Source: Eubacteriales bacterium | Lineage (GTDB): Bacteria > Bacillota > Clostridia > Lachnospirales > JAVBKL01 | Direction: 5' to 3' | Assembly: GCA_031554055.1 (NCBI GenBank) | Contig: JAVBKL010000002.1 | Coordinates: 1-14,159, forward strand | Length of the DNA stretch: 14,159 nt | Shown: one piece after another, positions 4,413-14,159 of the stretch | Layout: each line of letters opens with the position of its first letter | Position numbering within the stretch: position 1 is the stretch's first letter | Position numbers and translations under genes: made by a program | The notes under the pieces: generated by a model | The model's database searches: none | Seen by the model: the letters and a program-made list of their open reading frames with translations, nothing else | What the model was told of the DNA's origin: nothing

Positions 4413-7400
4413 TTATATCGTGGCTTCATATTCAGACGCTTGGTACGGCGTATAATCTACTTGGTTTTTGACGGTTTCTGGCAAGTCGTTTACAAGAGCT
4501 TTCTCTGTGAAAACGATGGAGTCTGCGTGAAACCCAGATTCACGGATATAGGCAACGAGGCTTGCTTCGTTATCCTTTAATAACTTGGACGCACCCACTT
4601 TGTCGGTGCTGATTTCAAGCTGAACAGCGTCTTTGTCTCGTTTTAAGAAAACAGAAACGTTTCCAATTGTGTCTGTGTTGAGCGACATAATCAAATCAGA
4701 AGTTTGCTTTTTGGATACGTTTTCATCAACGATGTACATATTTAAGTTTGCAATTTTGTCGGTCAGCTTAATGGGGATTTGCAAACGGTTGTTCTCTTCG
4801 TGTTGTTCAAAGTGCCGTCCCACTTGGACTGAATTTTGAACCAGCTCAAGTTCTTCAAGCAAGCTCCTAGACGTAACGTTCTGCTTTAAGTCTTCAAGCT
4901 GTGCAGAAACAGAGTCCAAAATATCGATGGTGCTGTTGCCCAATTTTAATTCAGCAAGATCCGCACTTGGTAGCTCCAACTCAAACTCGTCGTCTTCGTG
5001 TTTTAAATCTCGCTCAAGTTTATCAAGAGATTTCCCCATCGTAAAAGAGTCTTTAAGAAGCATTTGCATGGCTTGAATATTGGAAAGTGTTGTGGGCATT
5101 TGTCCACGCTGCATAAAATTGATGATGGTTGGCGGCGTGTTTAACGTATCCGTAATTTTCTTAAACGCCTGTTCCAATCTCTCATCGGAAATGGACTCTT
5201 TGTGGTCGAGGTTGGCAAGTTCAAGCTGTTCTGCCGCTTCTTCAATCAAAAGCTCTTTGGCAGGACGTTCGTTATTTGTTTTGGTCTTAAACAATTCAGT
5301 TACGGCATGGGGTGTTGCTTCTGCCGCCATTTTCTCAATAACGAGTGAATTGTATTCAAACTCGGACAATTTCTTAGCAGGGAAACTCTCTATTCGGCTT
5401 CTGATGTTTGAATCAAACGGACGCTCCAAAGCACCAAAGTTATCATCGACCGAAATATTATAATCGGCTTTGCCATGCTTGGATTTTTGATAAAACTTGG
5501 CGTCGTTCATTAAATCGCCAAGCTTGAGGTTTGAACCGTACTTTAAACTGATTCCGAGCGAAACGTTGTTGTCCTTTTGGATAATGTTCAGCATTCTGTA
5601 AAAATCTATCATGGACTCACGCTCGTCTTTCGTGAGGGTCTTTGTATCATCTAAATTTTTTATGCACTCATAAATATTATCAGACACGGACACGCCATGT
5701 TTTTCGTCCCATTCATAAATATAATTCAGAACATCGTCCACTTTCATTTCACGAGGGTTAAGCCCTTCTTTAATCATTTGTGCCGCAATATTTGGGTGTA
5801 GCTTATTTTGAATGGAGGACATTTTTGAATCAAGAATTTTAATTTCTGTTAAGTTTGCATCGGTCACGTCCAGATTGCTCTTTGATAAAATGGATGCGGC
5901 TTTTACATTTTCAGAAGTAGGGGTGATGCCCATATCTTCCAGAAATTTCGAAAACTGTGCTTCGACCTTCTTAAAGGAATCGCCGTGCTTAGGGTTTGCC
6001 ACGGTTTCAAACCGCTCATAGTCTTTGAGCAAACGGTTGGAGCGAACATTATCAGCAATGGCCCTTACCGTAAACGGAACAGCCTTGCTTAACAACTGGG
6101 CAAACAAATTGTTTTGTTGTGTCTGTGAATCTTTTAAATCTTTATATAAATTGTTTATTTTCGCTATGTTTTCGGGGCTGTCATCGGCGTTCATGGCACG
6201 AAGACTCGACGAATAATCTGCGTTTTGCTCAAGGCTTTCGAGTTTTGCAATGGCTTGTGCAAGAGGCAGGTTTAAGATGTTATCTTTTTTGGAGGACATT
6301 CTTTGCGCGGCTTCATACGTGAGCTTTAACTGAATGTCAACGAGCTGCTTTTTTGCAATGGCAACTTCTTCGGTTTTGGTGGTATCAACCGCTATTTTTT
6401 CAGATACCACAAGTTTCTCTTTAAGCGATTGTGTTAAATTCTCAATGGTCGGCTTCTGGTTCTTATTTAAAATAAATTCAATATGTGATGCTGTAATAAA
6501 TGGAATGTCTTTGATTGCGTTTTCATACTGAATCGGTAGGCTCTTTGTGTCTACAGGCACATTTGAAACGCTTTTATCAAATTTTATATTTTGTGCCGCA
6601 CCCCTTAAAATATCTTGTACATTCAAATGCGACTTTAAATTTCTTAGAAAAATAACTTTTTCCACATTGGGTTGTGTAACAGGGGTTTCGTTCTCTATTA
6701 AAAGTTTTGCCGCACTAACGGTTTCATCGGTCTTTTCGATTCCCTCACGGTCAAAAACTTTGTTGATTTCTGGGTCAAGTGCCTTCCAAGTTTCTGGGGG
6801 AAGCTTTTCCTTTGCTTGAAAACTAGAGGATGTATGTTTGGCTAAATATATATTTTCAACAGTCAGAGATTTCTCTTCTTTAACAAGTTGTGCAATCGTT
6901 TCGTCGTCTGGGCTCTGGATTTCCTTGAGCTTGAACACGACGGTGTCGAGGGACTTAATGTTTTTATCTGTCGGTGGCAACCCCTCGCTCGACAAAGCTT
7001 TTACGATTGCTTTGTTCTTGCTTGTGTTTTTTACAGGTAAGTTGTTCTCTTCGAGATATTGGTTTATCATTTTATCGAGCTCGTCTGGCGAAACTTGTGA
7101 GGTTGGCTTTGACTGTATTTCTTTCATAACGGAGTTTAAAACGCTTAGGCTTATTTTTTCAAGGGTAACACCGCTCGCCAAAAGCTCTTTTAAGGCACTT
7201 CGGCTCATGTTGTTGCTTACATAACGAACTTGCCGTTTGATTTTTGAGATGGCTTCCATTTCTTTCATTTTAAGGTCTTTGTCTTGTGCCTTTGGGTCGT
7301 CTTCGGTGATTAAATTATTCTTTTTAAACATTTCTTTTAAGTCGACGTTGGAACGTTTTTTCTCAATTGCCTTGGCAATGTCTGTGCTTTCACGAGTAAT

Positions 7401-7774: not shown

Positions 7775-8617
7775 TTATTGCAACAATTGAATTATGTTCT
7801 GAGGTGTTTGGTTTGCTTGGGCCATAATGGAAGTTGCTGTTTGTGTTAACACAGACAACCTTGAATACTCCGCCATTTCTCCTGCCATGTCCGTGTCAAA
7901 AATTCTTGACAAGGATTCAGAAGTTGAGGTCGAGGCTTGGGCTAAGTTATTTACGGTATGCTCCAAGCGGTTTTGATACGCACCGATTCTTGCACGGTAC
8001 TCGGATAACCTAGTAAGTGCTTCGTCTGCGGCAACAAGAGCCGTCTGGGGGTTTGTCACTACGTTAAGAGGGTTTGCCGAACTTTCATCCGTGTTTAATT
8101 TTAAAAGCTCACTGGATATTTTAGGCAAATTTACTTTTAGGCTAAGCCCTTTGTTTGAGCCAACGTGAAAAACAAGTTGCAAATCGCTGTTTTCTTCGTA
8201 GCCGCCGTCAAGAAGCTTAATTTTGTTAAAGTCAGATTTTCCAACCATTTCGTCAATCTCTTTGGATAACTGATCCACTTCAATTTGAATCGTTTCACGG
8301 TCTTCTGTTGTGTTCGTGTCGTTGGCCGCTTGGATACTTAACTCACGAACTCGTTGGACAATGTTTTGAATTTCGTTCAAACCACCGTCGGCAGTTTGAA
8401 GCACAGAGATTCCGTTAGATGCGTTTTGTCCCGCTTTGTCGATGCCTTGGGTTTGCATACGCAATGAGTTTGCGATTGCCAAGTTGGCAGCATTATCAGA
8501 AGCAGATTTTATTTTCACACCACTCGAAATGCGAGCAGAAGTTTTCACCATGCTGTTGTCGCTACGAGCGAGTGCATTATACGCATTTAATGAAGAACCG
8601 TTGTAGCTGATTTTCAT
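7775..8617 (-). CDS. fliC: Flagellin (D0-D1 only, 280 aa)
   Basis: Conserved flagellin N-domain (GISVLQTADGGLNEIQNIVQRVRELSIQAANDTNT...) and C-domain (RARIGAYQNRLEHTVNNL...AQANQTPQNIIQLLQ). RBS AAGGAG is 7 nt before the ATG. Confidence 0.9.
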   Translation of the reverse strand: MKISYNGSSLNAYNALARSDNSMVKTSARISSGVKIKSASDNAANLAIANSLRMQTQGIDKAGQNASNGISVLQTADGGLNEIQNIVQRVRELSIQAANDTNTTEDRETIQIEVDQLSKEIDEMVGKSDFNKIKLLDGGYEENSDLQLVFHVGSNKGLSLKVNLPKISSELLKLNTDESSANPLNVVTNPQTALVAADEALTRLSEYRARIGAYQNRLEHTVNNLAQASTSTSESLSRIFDTDMAGEMAEYSRLSVLTQTATSIMAQANQTPQNIIQLLQ

Positions 8618-8724
8618 ATCAACACTCCTTACAGTTTTAGTCTAAATCACTTTATACACAGTATTAATCGTAAAATTCAACAAAAAACATTAGAGCAAGT
8701 TTGCATTTCACAGATTTATAGCCC

Positions 8725-10280: not shown

Positions 10281-10348
10281 GTAGGTAAACCCCCTTTAAA
10301 AATTCTTCTAGTTAAACATAGCACCAATTGCATTTCAGTTCAATAGTA

Positions 10349-10457
10349 GACTTGTTCGATAACCGCTAGTATTTCAACTTTTATGGGGCGAAAATATCAG
10401 GCTTCAATGATTTTTCGTCACAAAACAGTTAGAAATTCTTAGGTTATCGAACAAGTC
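10349..10457. repeat. Perfect 16-bp inverted repeat (gacttgttcgataacc / ggttatcgaacaagtc) with a 77-nt spacer
   Basis: Read directly from the sequence. The arms are at 10349-10364 and 10442-10457. It sits in the sdaAB 5' region, which is also upstream of the Met-rich peptide gene. Confidence 0.6.
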
Positions 10458-10585
10458 GAGTAGTTAAAAATTTGTCGGGCTTTGTGTTTTTAGTATTGCC
10501 AAAAAAAATGTTTTTCTGGGACAGACAACAAAATTAAATTTGAGAGTACACTATACCATAACTATTTTTTGGGAGGTTTTCTTCT

Positions 10586-10750
10586 ATGAATAATGTTGGA
10601 GCAGGTTGTGGACCACAAGGCGGAAACAGCGATATGCTAATGCTTTTCTTCATGCTAATGATTATGTGCCCCGGAATGTTTGGCGGTATGGGCGATAATC
10701 CAATGATGATGTTAATGCTGATCATGATGATGAGTGGCGGACGGTTCTAG
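10586..10750 (+). CDS. 54-aa Met-rich hydrophobic micro-protein (MNNVGAGCGPQGGNSDMLMLFFMLMIMCPGMFGGMGDNPMMMLMLIMMMSGGRF)
   Basis: Strong RBS GGGAGG lies 9 nt before the ATG, and a terminator hairpin follows the stop. There is an internal tandem repeat: MLMLFFMLMIM and MMMLMLIMMM. The C-terminal 15 codons are duplicated at 14005-14049 with synonymous-only changes. It is below the ORF-track length cutoff. Confidence 0.6.
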   Translation: MNNVGAGCGPQGGNSDMLMLFFMLMIMCPGMFGGMGDNPMMMLMLIMMMSGGRF

Positions 10751-10766
10751 GGGAATATTTAGAAAT

Positions 10767-10808
10767 GAAAAAAGCTCGCAAGCTCGTGTAACTTGCGGGC
10801 TTTCTTCT
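10767..10808. terminator. Bidirectional terminator between the peptide gene (+) and the hydrolase gene (-)
   Basis: gaaaaaa, then agctcgcaag / ctcgtgtaa / cttgcgggct, then tttcttct. It runs into TTTTTT on the minus strand, so it is strongest for the hydrolase gene. Confidence 0.6.
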
Positions 10809-10850
10809 ATTCTGTACGACTGACATGCCAATAACCTCAGGTGAGATGAA

Positions 10851-12656
10851 TCATGGCTGGATCCAAGCCACTATATCTCCCAAAACAGTGCTATCTACAT
10901 GACTTGCGCTCTTATATTCTTCAGCAGTACCTGTTGTGGACAGCATAAACAAATGATTTAAGTCTGCGTATAGCTTAAATGCTACATTCGTTTTCCCGCT
11001 TAACAATGTTTGATATTCTTTATAATCCTTGTCGGGATAAACTTGAAAATCTTTGCCGCCTTGTAGTATCAGCACTGGTTTTTGAATGGCTTTTAAATAT
11101 GAAAAGGCAGGATGAGCCTCCATTTCTTTATAATAATAGCCAGAAGCTCCGACCAAAGTAATTTTCTTTGCATCCGCATCGGACATATCTTTTAAAGCTT
11201 CAAAGGTCGCAACCAATGCATCAACTTGACTTTGCCCTTTGATTTTAGTATCGCCCGTAAGCGTGTTTACGATAGCCATATATTGGTCACATATAACATC
11301 CGAAAGAGTGCGGGGTGTGCCTGCCATCATAATAATTCCTGCAAAGTTTCCGCCTTCCGCATCTATCCTTGGGGCAAGCATTCCACCTAAACTATGCCCA
11401 ATTATAAAAACCTTGTTTTTATCCATTCTTGCATCTGCTTTTAATATATTTGCTGCGAGTATTGCATCATCAATTGTTTCTTCTTCTACGGTAAACGCTG
11501 CAATATTTTGCGCAATTTGTTTTTGGTACACGTAAGTGCGCTTGTCATAACGCAAGACTGCAATTCCGTTTTCTGCAAGGTAATCAGCCATATCCTTAAA
11601 AGGTTTATTATTGTAAATCGTTTCATCTCTGTCGTTGGGACCAGAGCCGTGAACCAGAACAACAGAGGCCAAGGGCTTCTTTACATCTTTGGGTAATGTT
11701 AATGTGCCACTCAATTCATAATCTGTCCCCTTGCCGATTGTAATATTTTCTTCAATAATGCCAATATTTGATGGTATCATTTCTTTATAAACTCCCCCTC
11801 CTGCATGTTGCAAATTCACAATATAGACTGAGTGATTGGCCATGTCCACCAATATGGGATTCATCGACTTAAAGAAAGCATAACGCCCAACCTGACCGAT
11901 ATAGGTCGTGTCGTCAATACTTGATGAGGTATATGCTTCATTGTTTCCCTCAGGCTGGAGGAGCTTCACATCCTTGTGTAATTGGTCTTTTAGCCAATTT
12001 GTCACCTGTTCCTGCGTTTGTCCAGCATGATTTATGATGGCAGGGTCATCCACCCATACGACAGCGTGATAGGCCAACAAATCTCTGCTTGGATAGTTTT
12101 CCTCTTGAAACGCAGGTACATAACCCACGGTTTTACCCATCGATTCAGAGACAAACCTCAAAGGCACGTAGGTACGATTGTCATGGATGAAAGGAGGGGT
12201 TGATAACGTCTGGGGCGTGCCATTGACTATGGCACGGGCGTTGCCGATAGACATTGTAATTTTCATATCTGTTCCGCTAATTGTTACTTGATTCGTTTTA
12301 TTGTTCCACGCCACATTTGCGCCAAAAGATTCTGCTGTTACTCTTAATGGCACAAAAGAAGAATCGCCTTTTACAATCGCTTTGTAGGGCACGAATCGCC
12401 CATTTATCATTAGGAGACAATCATTTGGGTTCATATCAATACTACCATTTATAAAGGTATATGTGTAATCGTCTGTCATACCCTCGTCGGCTATTATGGA
12501 TTTACAAACGTATTCAGGCGTACTAGTAGAGTTAAGTGAGGTTTGTATGGTAGATTGTGTATTGGAAGAAATGTTATTAGCTATTTTAATGGTATTAAAA
12601 GTGAATGATAAAGCTAAACCCATTGCAACCATCTGGTAAATTTTTTTCATATTCAA
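10851..12656 (-). CDS. Secreted alpha/beta-hydrolase (GHSLGG nucleophile elbow) with N-terminal copper-amine-oxidase-N-terminal-like domain repeats
   Basis: Signal peptide MNMKKIYQMVAMGLALSFTF. Two segments with the Cu_amine_oxidN1-like motif (FVPLRVTAESFGANVAW; RTYVPLRFVSESMGKTVGY). C-terminal serine-hydrolase fold with GHSLGG. RBS AGGAGG is 8 nt before the ATG and abuts the stop of the upstream gene. Confidence 0.75.
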   Translation of the reverse strand: MNMKKIYQMVAMGLALSFTFNTIKIANNISSNTQSTIQTSLNSTSTPEYVCKSIIADEGMTDDYTYTFINGSIDMNPNDCLLMINGRFVPYKAIVKGDSSFVPLRVTAESFGANVAWNNKTNQVTISGTDMKITMSIGNARAIVNGTPQTLSTPPFIHDNRTYVPLRFVSESMGKTVGYVPAFQEENYPSRDLLAYHAVVWVDDPAIINHAGQTQEQVTNWLKDQLHKDVKLLQPEGNNEAYTSSSIDDTTYIGQVGRYAFFKSMNPILVDMANHSVYIVNLQHAGGGVYKEMIPSNIGIIEENITIGKGTDYELSGTLTLPKDVKKPLASVVLVHGSGPNDRDETIYNNKPFKDMADYLAENGIAVLRYDKRTYVYQKQIAQNIAAFTVEEETIDDAILAANILKADARMDKNKVFIIGHSLGGMLAPRIDAEGGNFAGIIMMAGTPRTLSDVICDQYMAIVNTLTGDTKIKGQSQVDALVATFEALKDMSDADAKKITLVGASGYYYKEMEAHPAFSYLKAIQKPVLILQGGKDFQVYPDKDYKEYQTLLSGKTNVAFKLYADLNHLFMLSTTGTAEEYKSASHVDSTVLGDIVAWIQP

Positions 12657-12662
12657 TTCCTC

Positions 12663-13475
12663 CTAAATATTATTTTTTAGTCTTTCGATTATATTTTGAA
12701 AACGACGCTCATTGGCAAGGGCGGAAAAGGCTGGATTATTTACTATTACATCAGCCATGCTTTGCTTTATTGTTTTTTCGTCACGCGGCAATGCTGTCCC
12801 TAATGGAAATTCCTCTAGCCAGTCATCCAGTAAATTGAAAAACCCATCCCCTTTTAACTGTAATGGGTATATATCACCTGTGACAATCTCTGTATATTTT
12901 TCCAATGTGCCAAGGCTTTTATCCATTTTTTCATTAATCAGGTATACTTGTGCGGCAGATAGATAGAAGTTCAATACAATAGACGGATGAAGGCTGTTTA
13001 TATCAAAGGTTTCCACTATGTTCATTGTTCGTCGATATACTTCCTCAAACCGTTTCGTATCGTCAGCGCATAACGCAAGATAAGAGGGGAATATCCCAAA
13101 CAGGGACATAATATGTTGGTATATGCCGACTTGTAGTATGGCCTTCGCTTCTTTCATTTTACCGACCATCTGGTAAGCCTGAGCAAGCAATGTTTCTGTG
13201 GAAACCACTGGTGCATTTGTTTCCCCAAGAAGTTCCAATACTTCATTCGCGTTACCAAGAGTGAGTGCACAAAGCGCTTCCTGCGATAATGCCTGTTTCG
13301 TCAATTCCACATCATCGCTTTCTTTTTTGACTCTAATGAAAAGCTCTCTTGCCTCCGAGATGATGGAGGTCATTTTATCAGTATCTTTACAAACTGCGCA
13401 GTAGTTAAAAAATAGCGCACCTATTTGAAATAGCAGCGGAAAACATGAAAAGTATTTCTTACGATTTCGCGGCAA
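12663..13475 (-). CDS. Helical-repeat (TPR/RNPP-like) domain protein, likely the C-terminal part of a split XRE-family regulator
   Basis: The track ORF has a TTG start. The first 34 codons look like out-of-frame translation, and plausible protein begins at MTSIISEAREL (ATG 13373, poor SD). It overlaps the upstream HTH ORF by 55 nt. Its stop is 6 nt before the hydrolase ATG, with the hydrolase RBS overlapping it. Confidence 0.5.
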   Translation of the reverse strand: MPRNRKKYFSCFPLLFQIGALFFNYCAVCKDTDKMTSIISEARELFIRVKKESDDVELTKQALSQEALCALTLGNANEVLELLGETNAPVVSTETLLAQAYQMVGKMKEAKAILQVGIYQHIMSLFGIFPSYLALCADDTKRFEEVYRRTMNIVETFDINSLHPSIVLNFYLSAAQVYLINEKMDKSLGTLEKYTEIVTGDIYPLQLKGDGFFNLLDDWLEEFPLGTALPRDEKTIKQSMADVIVNNPAFSALANERRFQNIIERLKNNI

Positions 13476-13768
13476 TGGTCCATAACTTCGTTAAACGGCT
13501 TGGTCGCAAAATCAGCCGATAATGATAGGTATAATTTACGAATATCCTCTTTAGTCATTTGCGGTTCATAACCCATCAAATCATCAATGCTAATATTAAA
13601 GTATGTTGCAAGTTGTGGAAGAAAAGTAATATCAGGATAGCTCTGCCCTGTTTCCCATTTTGAAATGGATGCTTTAGAAACGCCGATATAGGTTGCAAGG
13701 TCATCTTGTGTAATGTTTTTTTCTTTTCGCTTATGCACAATTACTTTTGCAATGTTTATTTCTTTCAT
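13421..13768 (-). CDS. XRE-family HTH DNA-binding protein (N-terminal part of a possible RNPP/Rgg-like regulator)
   Basis: Cro/C1 HTH (ITQDDLATYIGVSKASISKWETGQSYP). RBS GAGGTG is 6 nt before ATG 13768. The track's GTG at 13777 is less likely. The C-terminal 15-20 aa (RNTFHVFRCYFK) look like frame-shifted junk. Confidence 0.65.
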   Translation of the reverse strand: MKEINIAKVIVHKRKEKNITQDDLATYIGVSKASISKWETGQSYPDITFLPQLATYFNISIDDLMGYEPQMTKEDIRKLYLSLSADFATKPFNEVMDHCREIVRNTFHVFRCYFK

Positions 13769-13822
13769 ACGCCTCACCTCTGTTTAGAGTATACAAGTAA
13801 GCAGCTATTTACTCAATGGATT

Positions 13823-13856
13823 TGTGGTTGATTTTAGTTGAAAAAATCAACCCACA
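13823..13856. promoter_or_regulatory. Imperfect 13/14-bp palindrome (tgtggttgatttt agttga aaaatcaacccaca), candidate operator
   Basis: Read directly from the sequence. It lies about 55-85 bp upstream of the XRE regulator start. There is no adjacent T-tract on either strand, so it is unlikely to be a terminator. Confidence 0.35.
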
Positions 13857-14004
13857 GGCAACCAAATAAAAAAAGAAGTAATCTAATGGGAATGAGGATG
13901 ATTAATCTATTGAAATAGTGCGGAGCTTTTGTGACGAATTTTGGATTTTAAGAATAGCCTGTCGTAAAATGTAAATGTATTTAGTCTTTGCTTGACACTA
14001 GCAG

Positions 14005-14049
14005 ATGATGCTCATGCTGATTATGATGATGAGCGGCGGACGGTTCTAG
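14005..14049 (+). CDS. 14-aa Met-rich mini-ORF MMLMLIMMMSGGRF, a paralogous copy of the C-terminus of the 54-aa peptide
   Basis: The ORF has a stop and is followed 15 nt later by a GNRA-loop terminator. It is 88 percent identical to 10703-10753 over about 50 nt, with synonymous-only differences inside the ORF. No SD is recognisable, so translation is uncertain. Confidence 0.3.
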   Translation: MMLMLIMMMSGGRF

Positions 14050-14064
14050 GGAAAACCAAATTTT

Positions 14065-14092
14065 GGCGAGGGCGAAAGCTCTCGTCATTTTT
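14065..14092 (+). terminator. Rho-independent terminator with GAAA tetraloop
   Basis: ggcgagggc / gaaa / gctctcgtc, a 9-bp stem with two G-U pairs, followed by atttttg. Confidence 0.5.
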
Positions 14093-14159
14093 GTATTTAC
14101 TCAACTTTCGCACACATAAAAAGTGGGCGAAAGCTTGCAAATAACAAGATATAAAGCAT

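What the first reader, a model, noticed from the sequence alone, without database searches (positions are those of the whole stretch)
14002..14052. Truncated paralog of the Met-rich peptide with synonymous-only divergence, divergently placed upstream of the XRE/helical regulator
A roughly 50-nt block is 88 percent identical to the 3' end of the 54-aa gene at 10703-10753. It keeps the stop codon, and homology ends 3-4 nt after the stop. Inside the retained ORF (MMLMLIMMMSGGRF) every difference is synonymous: tta to ctc (Leu), atc to att (Ile), agt to agc (Ser). The only non-synonymous change (atg to cag) is in the codon just before the new first ATG. This is the signature of selection on the peptide, not on the DNA. 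The mini-ORF corresponds exactly to the segment following the DNP in the long form, which suggests this C-terminal block is the functional unit. It lies about 230 bp upstream of, and divergent from, the XRE-HTH regulator. That is the arrangement seen for Rgg/SHP short-hydrophobic-peptide pheromone pairs, and SHP cores such as DIIIIVGG / DILIIVGG also end in a hydrophobic run followed by GG. It is followed by a clean GNRA-loop terminator. The caveats are that no SD is visible and only 6 differences are available, so the statistics are thin.
Basis: partly seen in the sequence, partly recalled or inferred. Interest (0 to 1): 0.8.

Follow-up and report, generated by a model that had tools for sequence, protein, structure and literature searches.

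The report
Leftover duplicated end of small gene
The 14-codon "mini-ORF" is a real, promoter-less copy of the last 15 codons of a small sporulation-type membrane-peptide gene, and it is most likely a displaced gene end left by a 3.25-kb insertion, not a pheromone gene.

Summary
Window 14004-14054 repeats 10705-10755 (51 nt, 90% identical). Inside the retained frame all four nucleotide differences are synonymous, which random substitution gives with P of about 0.0004-0.0014. The pheromone reading is not supported.

- The long gene belongs to a real, unannotated family of 47-71-aa Met/Leu-rich proteins in Clostridia. Every full-length member has a GGAGG ribosome-binding site and a shared sigmaK-like promoter. 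The mini copy has neither, and a stop codon lies two codons upstream of its ATG.
- Seven independent family loci carry no truncated copy.
- Five loci with homologues of the neighbouring HTH/helical-repeat regulator carry no Met-rich ORF.
- That regulator normally heads a PLDc_N/ABC-transporter operon, has no Rgg domain, and is frameshifted here.

The two copies are direct repeats flanking a 3.25-kb esterase-regulator segment. One copy completes the gene. The other is a bare 3' fragment with its own strong terminator. This is the icd/icdC pattern seen at insertions into gene ends. The synonymous-only divergence would then come from selection on two full-length genes before the insertion.

Against this model, there is no recombinase in the segment and no empty site to compare with. 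Interest is low to moderate.

The parts
10586..10750 (+). Full-length 54-aa gene (MNNVGAGCGPQGGNSDMLMLFFMLMIMCPGMFGGMGDNPMMMLMLIMMMSGGRF). It is a member of an unannotated family of small Met/Leu-rich hydrophobic proteins.
   Evidence: ORF list. Homologues of 47-71 aa were found with E down to 2e-19 and aligned. No Pfam or NCBIfam hit.
10520..10576 (+). Promoter and ribosome-binding site of the long gene. The -35-like GACAGACAAC is at 10520-10529, the -10-like TACACTATA at about 10547-10555, and the SD GGGAGG at 10571-10576.
   Evidence: The alignment of eight family upstream regions shows ACA[G/T]GCA[A/C]C, then 15 nt, then CATAnnAT, and an invariant GGAGG. AC at -35 with CATA at -10 is the sigmaK type (PMC3789822). 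The assignment to sigmaK is inferred. The window's own -10 is the weakest match.
10705..10755 (+). Repeat copy 1: the last 15 codons, the stop, and 5 nt of the long gene.
10774..10802 (.). Bidirectional terminator hairpin shared by the long gene (+) and the convergent esterase gene (-). The better U-tract is on the - strand.
   Evidence: -22.6 kcal/mol on +, -27.5 kcal/mol on -.
10851..12650 (-). Secreted alpha/beta hydrolase (EstD-like esterase) with a Cu_amine_oxidN1 stalk domain. It lies inside the segment flanked by the repeats.
   Evidence: Pfam and NCBIfam hits. The start ATG is at 12650, after a GGAGG.
12663..13768 (-). XRE-HTH plus helical-repeat regulator, split into two ORFs by a 1-nt deletion near 13459. 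Reconstructed, it is 368 aa.
   Evidence: The reconstructed protein matches more than 2000 homologues of about 368 aa, the best at 83% identity. The predicted structure has pLDDT 84.5.
13778..13862 (-). Conserved promoter (TTGAGT-17-TATACT) and palindromic operator-like element (GGTTGATTTTTTCAAC..AAATCAAC) of the regulator. Homology with regulator orthologues stops at about 13862.
   Evidence: Alignment with L001 and L002. Promoter scan.
14004..14054 (+). Repeat copy 2: the truncated 3' end of the small gene. The 14-codon ORF is 14005-14049. There is an in-frame TAG at 13999-14001, no SD and no promoter.
   Evidence: (family HMM positions 51-64 only, E 0.0028).
14064..14087 (+). Strong intrinsic terminator (10-bp stem, GAAA loop, T-tract) 14 nt after the stop of copy 2. 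It is proposed to be the original terminator of the small gene.
   Evidence: Its role as the native terminator is inferred.

Best explanation
Copy 2 (14004-14054) is an untranslated remnant. It is the displaced 3' end of the 54-aa gene, left behind when the 3.25-kb esterase-regulator segment (10756-14003) came to lie inside the end of that gene.

The incoming DNA carried, or recombination created, a substitute gene end. That is copy 1, which now completes the ORF. The original end, with its own terminator (14064-14087), was pushed 3.3 kb downstream. There it has no promoter, no ribosome-binding site and no 5' coding part.

The two ends differ only synonymously because each evolved as part of an intact, selected gene before the event. 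They could have been in different lineages, or in two paralogues. Flanking non-coding DNA is unrelated because neutral sites between the two versions are saturated (pS 0.57).

The remnant shows no damage, so the event is recent: less than about 0.08 substitutions per site.

Shown:
- the direct repeats flank the segment;
- one copy is complete and the other bare;
- expression signals are absent from the bare copy;
- the copy is not conserved elsewhere.

Inferred:
- the insertion mechanism;
- which copy is native.

I put about 0.8 on 'non-functional remnant' and about 0.45 on the specific icd/icdC-like insertion route. The confidence field below refers to that specific route.
For: - The repeats are direct and flank exactly two genes.
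- Copy 1 completes a family-typical ORF. Copy 2 matches only HMM positions 51-64.
- All eight full-length family genes share GGAGG and a sigmaK-like promoter. Copy 2 has no SD, no such promoter and no sigma-70-like site. A TAG lies two codons before its ATG.
- There is no similarity outside the block, as expected with pS 0.57 and dS of about 1.
- Copy 2 is followed within 14 nt by a strong + strand terminator, as family genes usually are.
- No truncated copy occurs in seven other family lineages. No Met-rich ORF occurs next to five regulator homologues.
- The regulator cassette sits in different neighbourhoods in every locus. Its downstream cargo is swapped exactly at the start codon. A regulator plus hydrolase version is on B. 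cereus plasmids. So the cassette moves around.
- The regulator carries a single fresh lesion, consistent with a young, non-essential insert.
- There is a precedent. Prophage e14 is flanked by icd, whose end lies in the prophage, and by the icdC C-terminal pseudogene. The differences between them are mostly synonymous (PMC13626634).
Against: - The 3.25-kb segment contains no integrase, recombinase or transposase.
- It has no terminal inverted repeats and no GC shift.
- No close relative or empty site could be found. The source genome is absent from every collection.
- Zero amino-acid changes in 14 residues despite dS near 1 is a little tighter than expected for two orthologous ends. About 1.5-3 changes would be expected at omega 0.05-0.1. 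A selected mini-ORF would also explain this.
- The window ends 105 nt after copy 2, so what lies downstream is unknown.
Confidence: 0.45

Rival explanations
1. Functional mini-ORF. The 14-aa peptide MMLMLIMMMSGGRF is translated, leaderless or without an SD. It acts either as a signalling peptide sensed by the adjacent HTH/helical-repeat regulator (Rgg/SHP-like) or as a stand-alone version of the family's C-terminal hydrophobic module.
For: - The divergence is synonymous-only with 14/14 residues identical.
- The ORF is intact with its own terminator.
- It starts right after the conserved [D/E/Q]N[P/S] linker that separates the two hydrophobic blocks of the family.
- The regulator has the HTH plus helical-repeat architecture. 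Its best solved-structure matches are ComR, PlcR, PrgX and Rgg2.
Against: - It has no SD and no promoter, whereas 8/8 family genes have both.
- It is absent next to 5/5 regulator homologues and from 7/7 other family lineages.
- The regulator has no Rgg C-terminal domain. The fold match is weak (TM 0.2), and generic TPR proteins score alike.
- The regulator is frameshifted here.
- The peptide has no basic N-terminal region as in SHP precursors.
- The conserved operator region ends 140 nt before the ORF.
Confidence: 0.08
2. Recently truncated second paralogue, with no insertion involved. The genome once had two full-length family genes. A deletion or rearrangement removed the promoter and the first 40 codons of the second one. 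The neighbouring esterase-regulator genes are unrelated to the event.
For: It has the same explanatory power for the synonymous-only divergence and the lack of expression signals. It needs no recombinase, which matches the absence of one. A -35-like ACAGGCAAC lies 150 nt upstream, at 13854-13862.
Against: - None of the seven other family lineages shows a second copy within 10 kb.
- It does not explain why the fragment and the intact gene are direct repeats that neatly bracket a two-gene cassette found in shifting contexts elsewhere.
- There is no trace of the 5' coding part.
- The -35-like 9-mer overlaps the regulator's own conserved upstream region, where orthologues have ACAAGAAAC. It is probably coincidental.
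Confidence: 0.25
3. Met-rich leader peptide of a ribosome-mediated attenuator. It would control a gene that starts beyond the window end. The terminator at 14064-14087 would be the attenuator.
For: It is a short ORF with 8 Met in 14 codons, followed 14 nt later by a strong terminator. A further structured region follows, and 13975-14159 folds with z = -3.2.
Against: - It has no SD.
- No sequence in or after the ORF is complementary to the 5' arm of the terminator, so no antiterminator is seen (and direct reading).
- The block is plainly homologous to the coding end of a 54-aa protein whose relatives replace many Met by Leu, Ile or Phe.
- No Rfam match.
Confidence: 0.03
4. RNA-level element. 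The copy acts as RNA, for example as a decoy or pairing partner for a regulator of the long gene's mRNA 3' end, not as a coding sequence.
For: The block is followed by a terminator, so a short stable RNA is conceivable.
Against: Selection on RNA pairing would not restrict changes to synonymous positions of one frame. No promoter is predicted. No Rfam family matches.
Confidence: 0.03

Closest known systems
icd / icdC at the e14 (and phage 21) attachment site of E. coli K-12
   Same: An intact gene whose 3' end abuts an inserted segment. A promoter-less duplicate of just that 3' end sits at the far side of the insert. The two ends are direct repeats that differ mainly by synonymous substitutions (PMC13626634).
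   Different: The insert here is only 3.25 kb and has no integrase or phage genes. The repeat is 51 nt, against about 165 nt. The target is a 54-aa gene. Excision or an empty site has not been observed.
Rgg/SHP and other RRNPP regulator-peptide pairs (ComR/ComS, PlcR/PapR, PrgX)
   Same: A short hydrophobic ORF sits divergently upstream of an HTH plus helical-repeat regulator. RRNPP receptors are the top, though weak, structural matches of the regulator.
   Different: - The regulator has no Rgg C-terminal domain.
- The peptide ORF is not conserved beside regulator homologues.
- The ORF has no SD or promoter.
- The peptide has no Lys-rich N-terminus.
- The regulator normally heads a PLDc_N/ABC-2 transporter operon.
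- The regulator is frameshifted here.
Tiny hydrophobic sporulation proteins of Firmicutes (e.g. the YjcZ-type 'tiny TM' family; from my own knowledge)
   Same: The long gene is a monocistronic gene of about 55 aa with a Gly-rich N-terminus and hydrophobic core. It occurs in spore-forming Clostridia and has a mother-cell-type (AC / CATA) promoter.
   Different: No sequence match to any NCBIfam or Pfam model. It has two hydrophobic blocks separated by CPGMFGG-x-[DEQ]N[PS] and an unusually high Met content.

Membership tests
Rgg/SHP (RRNPP) pheromone pair | The regulator carries the Rgg/RRNPP peptide-binding TPR-like domain. | tested here: inconclusive
   No Rgg_Cterm or other RRNPP model hit in NCBIfam or Pfam. 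PDB sequence search hits only the HTH domain. Foldseek ranks ComR, PlcR, PrgX and Rgg2 first, but at E 5e-4 and TM 0.17-0.25. Generic TPR proteins score alike.
Rgg/SHP (RRNPP) pheromone pair | The peptide gene is conserved next to the regulator in related loci. | tested here: not met
   Five regulator-homologue loci (L001, L002, L018, L019, L020) give no family-HMM hit better than E 0.4, and the regulator's upstream neighbours differ in all five. Upstream homology, aligned for L001 and L002 only, ends at about 13862.
Rgg/SHP (RRNPP) pheromone pair | The peptide precursor is expressed: it has a promoter, an RBS, a basic N-terminus and a hydrophobic C-terminus. | tested here: not met
   No SD and no sigma-70-like or family promoter. 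The sequence MMLMLIMMMSGGRF has no N-terminal Lys or Arg.
Rgg/SHP (RRNPP) pheromone pair | Export and processing (PptAB/Eep) and re-import (Opp), with the peptide changing regulator activity. | not testable with these tools
   This needs experiments. In addition, the regulator ORF is interrupted by a 1-nt deletion.
Gene 3'-end duplication at an insertion site (icd/icdC type) | Direct repeats of a gene's 3' end bracket an inserted segment. One copy completes the gene and the other is a bare fragment. | tested here: met
   Copy 1 completes the 54-aa ORF. Copy 2 is stop-bounded at 13999-14001 and covers HMM positions 51-64 only.
Gene 3'-end duplication at an insertion site (icd/icdC type) | Differences between the two ends are mainly synonymous. 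| tested here: met
   4 of 4 differences within the shared frame are synonymous, P 4e-4 to 1.4e-3.
Gene 3'-end duplication at an insertion site (icd/icdC type) | A site-specific recombinase or other mobility genes lie in the bracketed segment. | tested here: not met
   The segment holds only an esterase and an XRE regulator. It has no terminal inverted repeats and no GC shift.
Gene 3'-end duplication at an insertion site (icd/icdC type) | An uninterrupted (empty) site exists in related genomes. | not testable with these tools
   No close relative is available. Exact-protein look-ups failed. The nearest family member is 63-67% identical.
Met/Leu-rich small-protein family (unannotated) | A full two-block architecture: N-terminal MNN.G.G / GN[DE], hydrophobic block, CPGMFGG, [DEQ]N[PS], hydrophobic block, SGG[RK]F. 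It also has GGAGG and the shared promoter. | tested here: met
   This is met by the long gene 10586-10750. The mini copy at 14005-14049 meets only the last block, so it is a fragment and not a member gene.
Ribosome-mediated attenuation leader peptide | A translated leader ORF whose translation toggles alternative terminator and antiterminator hairpins upstream of a regulated gene. | tested here: not met
   No SD and no alternative pairing with the terminator's 5' arm. The downstream gene is unknown because the window ends at 14159.

The most novel reading that the evidence does not exclude
The C-terminal hydrophobic block of this sporulation-type small-protein family has been 'spun off' as an independently selected 14-aa peptide gene. 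It is translated without a Shine-Dalgarno sequence and may be sensed by the adjacent HTH/helical-repeat regulator. That would be a newly born pheromone or micro-peptide caught just after its origin from a gene fragment.
Probability: 0.07. Interest if true: 0.7.

Novelty: new member of a known kind. Interest (0 to 1): 0.25.

Why it matters
If the main reading is right, this is an ordinary by-product of genome rearrangement. It is still useful in two ways.

- It is a clean example of why synonymous-only divergence does not prove that a short ORF is functional. The selection may have acted earlier, on a longer gene.
- It marks the 3' end of a tiny gene as an insertion point for a mobile regulator-esterase cassette.

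The by-products are of some independent value:
- an unannotated family of Met/Leu-rich proteins of about 55 aa with a conserved mother-cell-type promoter;
- a widespread, highly conserved XRE/helical-repeat regulator whose cargo operon is swapped between lineages.

If the minority reading is right, it would be a rare snapshot of micro-peptide gene birth.

Tried and rejected
- Finding the source genome or close relatives. Exact-protein look-ups for five window proteins all failed. The genome-contig and metagenome-contig scans returned only distant family members at 54-73% identity. A degenerate DNA pattern for the block found nothing in viral contigs. So dN/dS across orthologues, the decisive test, could not be done.
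- Extended homology around the block, such as a decayed 5' half or a shared terminator: none above shuffles.
- Terminal inverted repeats or a compositional signature of the 3.25-kb segment: none.
- Known RNA families in the whole window: only a chance snoRNA hit below threshold.
- Pfam and NCBIfam for the peptide family: no hits.
- A family-type promoter upstream of the mini copy. Only a -35-like 9-mer at 13854-13862 was found. It overlaps the regulator's conserved region and has no CATA -10. I judged it coincidental.
- The attenuator idea: no antiterminator pairing and no SD.
- P0146, a 35-aa database entry. It is an N-terminally shortened gene call on a 940-nt contig that still contains both blocks. 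It is not a natural short form like the mini-ORF.

Full report
**1. The observation**

The block is there as described. The repeat finder ranks 10705-10755 / 14004-14054 (51 nt, 90% identical) as the top direct repeat of the window. Nothing else comes close.

Codon by codon, the copies differ by atg>cag, tta>ctc, atc>att and agt>agc. Both keep TAG, and similarity ends after TAGGG. The ORF is 14005-14049 (MMLMLIMMMSGGRF). An in-frame TAG at 13999-14001 means it cannot be longer.

A 10-bp GAAA-loop terminator follows at 14064-14087. The regulator's ATG (13768, minus strand) is 236 nt away and divergent.

Only 7 of the 48 sites are synonymous, because eight codons are ATG. Four random substitutions would all be silent in only 0.04-0.11% of simulations. 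Allowing for the post-hoc choice of the ORF boundary, the figure is 0.06-0.14%. So the 'selection on the reading frame' signal is statistically real. No similarity exists outside the block.

**2. The long gene**

The 54-aa ORF at 10586-10750 has no Pfam or NCBIfam match, but it is a real gene. Profile searches recover about 33 clusters of 47-71-aa proteins from Clostridia, Defluviitaleaceae MAGs and gut or digester metagenomes, with E down to 2e-19.

They share this layout: MNN.G.G...GN[DE], a hydrophobic block, CPGMFGG, x, [D/E/Q]N[P/S], a second hydrophobic block, then SGG[R/K](M)F. In relatives many Met are Leu, Ile or Phe, so the property conserved is hydrophobicity and not methionine.

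The genes are monocistronic in varied neighbourhoods. All eight upstream regions examined share an invariant GGAGG. They also share a promoter-like motif ACA[G/T]GCA[A/C]C, then 15 nt, then CATAnnAT. 'AC' at -35 with a CATA-type -10 is the sigmaK signature described for C. difficile and B. subtilis (PMC3789822). My inference is a late mother-cell sporulation gene. This is not shown, and the window's own -10 is the poorest match.

**3. The mini copy**

It corresponds to family-HMM positions 51-64 only (E 0.0028). It has no Shine-Dalgarno sequence (tttagtctttgcttgacactagcag|ATG) and no family promoter. The sigma-70 scan finds nothing on the + strand between 13413 and the window end.

The only nearby resemblance is a -35-like ACAGGCAAC at 13854-13862. 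It lacks a CATA -10 and overlaps the regulator's own conserved upstream sequence, where orthologues have ACAAGAAAC. I treat it as coincidence.

**4. The regulator**

The two overlapping ORFs (13421-13777 and 12663-13475) are one gene broken by a single-base deletion near 13459. Adding one base gives a 368-aa protein that matches more than 2000 homologues of about 368 aa, the best at 83% identity.

In three orthologous loci it is followed by a 66-aa PLDc_N protein and an ABC-2 transporter. In a fourth, an ABC ATPase follows directly. On B. cereus plasmids it is followed by a CPBP protease and an alpha/beta hydrolase. In the window, homology to L001 runs through the stop codon and SD up to the ATG of the next gene. 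After that the cargo is a 599-aa secreted esterase instead.

Upstream, a promoter and palindromic operator region of about 85 nt (13778-13862) is conserved with L001 and L002. Homology stops there, 140 nt short of the mini-ORF. None of the five homologue loci has a Met-rich ORF, and their upstream neighbours all differ.

The predicted structure (pLDDT 84.5) is an HTH followed by helical repeats. Foldseek puts ComR, PlcR, PrgX and Rgg2 first, but weakly (E 5e-4, TM about 0.2), and generic TPR proteins score similarly. No Rgg C-terminal model matches. The RRNPP likeness is therefore architectural at best, and membership is not established.

**5. The most likely explanation**

The two copies are direct repeats that bracket exactly the esterase and regulator genes (10756-14003).
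- Copy 1 completes the small gene. It is followed by a bidirectional hairpin whose better U-tract serves the esterase on the minus strand.
- Copy 2 is a bare 3' fragment, followed within 14 nt by a strong plus-strand terminator, as family genes typically are.

This is the anatomy of an insertion into the end of a gene in which a substitute end keeps the gene intact and the original end is displaced. The textbook case is e14 in E. coli. There icd runs into the prophage, and an icdC C-terminal pseudogene lies at the other prophage end. Their differences are mostly synonymous (PMC13626634).

Under this model the synonymous-only divergence (pS 4/7, dS about 1) accumulated while each end belonged to a full-length, selected gene. 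The unrelated flanks are simply saturated neutral DNA. The remnant is undamaged because the event is young, less than about 0.08 substitutions per site. The single fresh lesion in the regulator fits a young, dispensable insert.

**6. Weaknesses of this explanation**

- The segment has no recombinase, no terminal inverted repeats and no compositional shift.
- I could not find an empty site. The source genome and close relatives are absent from all collections.
- A simple 'second paralogue recently truncated' scenario explains the data nearly as well. Against it, no second copy occurs in seven other lineages, and the fragment brackets a cassette that is in a different place in every genome.
- The functional mini-ORF reading cannot be excluded from sequence alone. 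It would explain 14/14 identical residues a little better. But it needs translation without any of the signals that every real family gene has, and a partnership that no related locus shows.
- An attenuator or RNA role has no positive support.

**7. A testable prediction**

In three divergent family lineages the small gene is followed, on the same strand, by a conserved 145-188-aa gene (L003, L008-L010, L011-L014). No homologue of it is in the window. If copy 2 is the native end, that partner may lie just beyond position 14159. The partner is missing from the downstream sequence available in L004-L007 and from downstream of the family gene in L015, so its absence would not refute the model.

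**8. Verdict**

The 'selection on the frame' inference is correct, but it was attributed to the wrong object. The pheromone-pair interpretation is not supported.

The best reading is a young, untranslated, displaced gene-end remnant of the icd/icdC kind. That makes it a new instance of a known kind. I put about 0.8 on 'remnant' and about 0.45 on the insertion route. Interest is low to moderate.

Noticed in passing
window 12663-13768 (-), lesion near 13459: The XRE/helical-repeat regulator is split by a 1-nt deletion relative to L001 and L002 (atcgt-aagaaa vs atcgtcaagaaa). Restoring one base gives a 368-aa protein matching more than 2000 full-length homologues. It could be a real pseudogene or a sequencing error.
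   Followed up: partly
window 10586-10750; loci L003-L017: An unannotated family of 47-71-aa Met/Leu-rich hydrophobic proteins in Clostridia, with no Pfam or NCBIfam model. All examined members share a GGAGG and an ACA[G/T]GCA[A/C]C-N15-CATAnnAT promoter that resembles the sigmaK type. This suggests a late sporulation micro-protein.
   Followed up: partly
L003 1033-1467; L008 10553-11074; L011 10522-11070: A conserved 145-188-aa gene of unknown function follows the small gene on the same strand in three divergent lineages (24-28% identity; tblastn E 8e-14 to 4e-16, pairwise BLASTP 1e-19). It is a possible functional partner. It is absent from the window.
   Followed up: partly
window 13778-13862 (and L001 about 1975-2067, L002 about 8580-8640): A strongly conserved promoter plus palindromic element (GGTTGATTTTTTCAAC...AAATCAAC) lies upstream of the regulator across loci that are 73-83% identical at the protein level. 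It is probably the autoregulatory operator.
   Followed up: no
window 12650-12665 vs L001 3171-3188: Homology between regulator loci runs through the stop codon and SD up to the ATG of the next gene. After that the cargo differs (esterase here, PLDc_N/ABC transporter elsewhere, CPBP plus hydrolase on B. cereus plasmids). This looks like a cassette-like cargo swap at the start codon.
   Followed up: partly
L001 939-1056 / 6227-6344 and 102-478 / 5166-5380: In the closest regulator locus, the regulator-ABC cassette is also bracketed by a 118-nt direct repeat (88% identical), which is the 5' end of a 185-aa gene duplicated as a 32-aa ORF. It is also bracketed by inverted partial copies of a DUF2200 gene. 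This hints that the cassette sits in rearrangement-prone DNA.
   Followed up: no
window 14070-14079 and 14126-14135; 14089-14150: GGGCGAAAGC occurs twice. Once it forms the terminator top, and once it is in a second GAAA-loop hairpin that pairs better on the + strand (G-U pairs). The region 13975-14159 folds with z = -3.2. The window ends before its context is visible.
   Followed up: no
window 10339-10364 / 10442-10467: A 26-nt inverted repeat (85% complementary, 77-nt spacer) lies in the intergenic region between the serine dehydratase beta gene and the small gene's promoter. Its function is unknown.
   Followed up: no
L007 about 1400-1500: One family member (P0131) has a C-terminal extension that runs into a tract of ctcaactctc/cactctc tandem repeats directly after the normal SGGRL end.
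   Followed up: no
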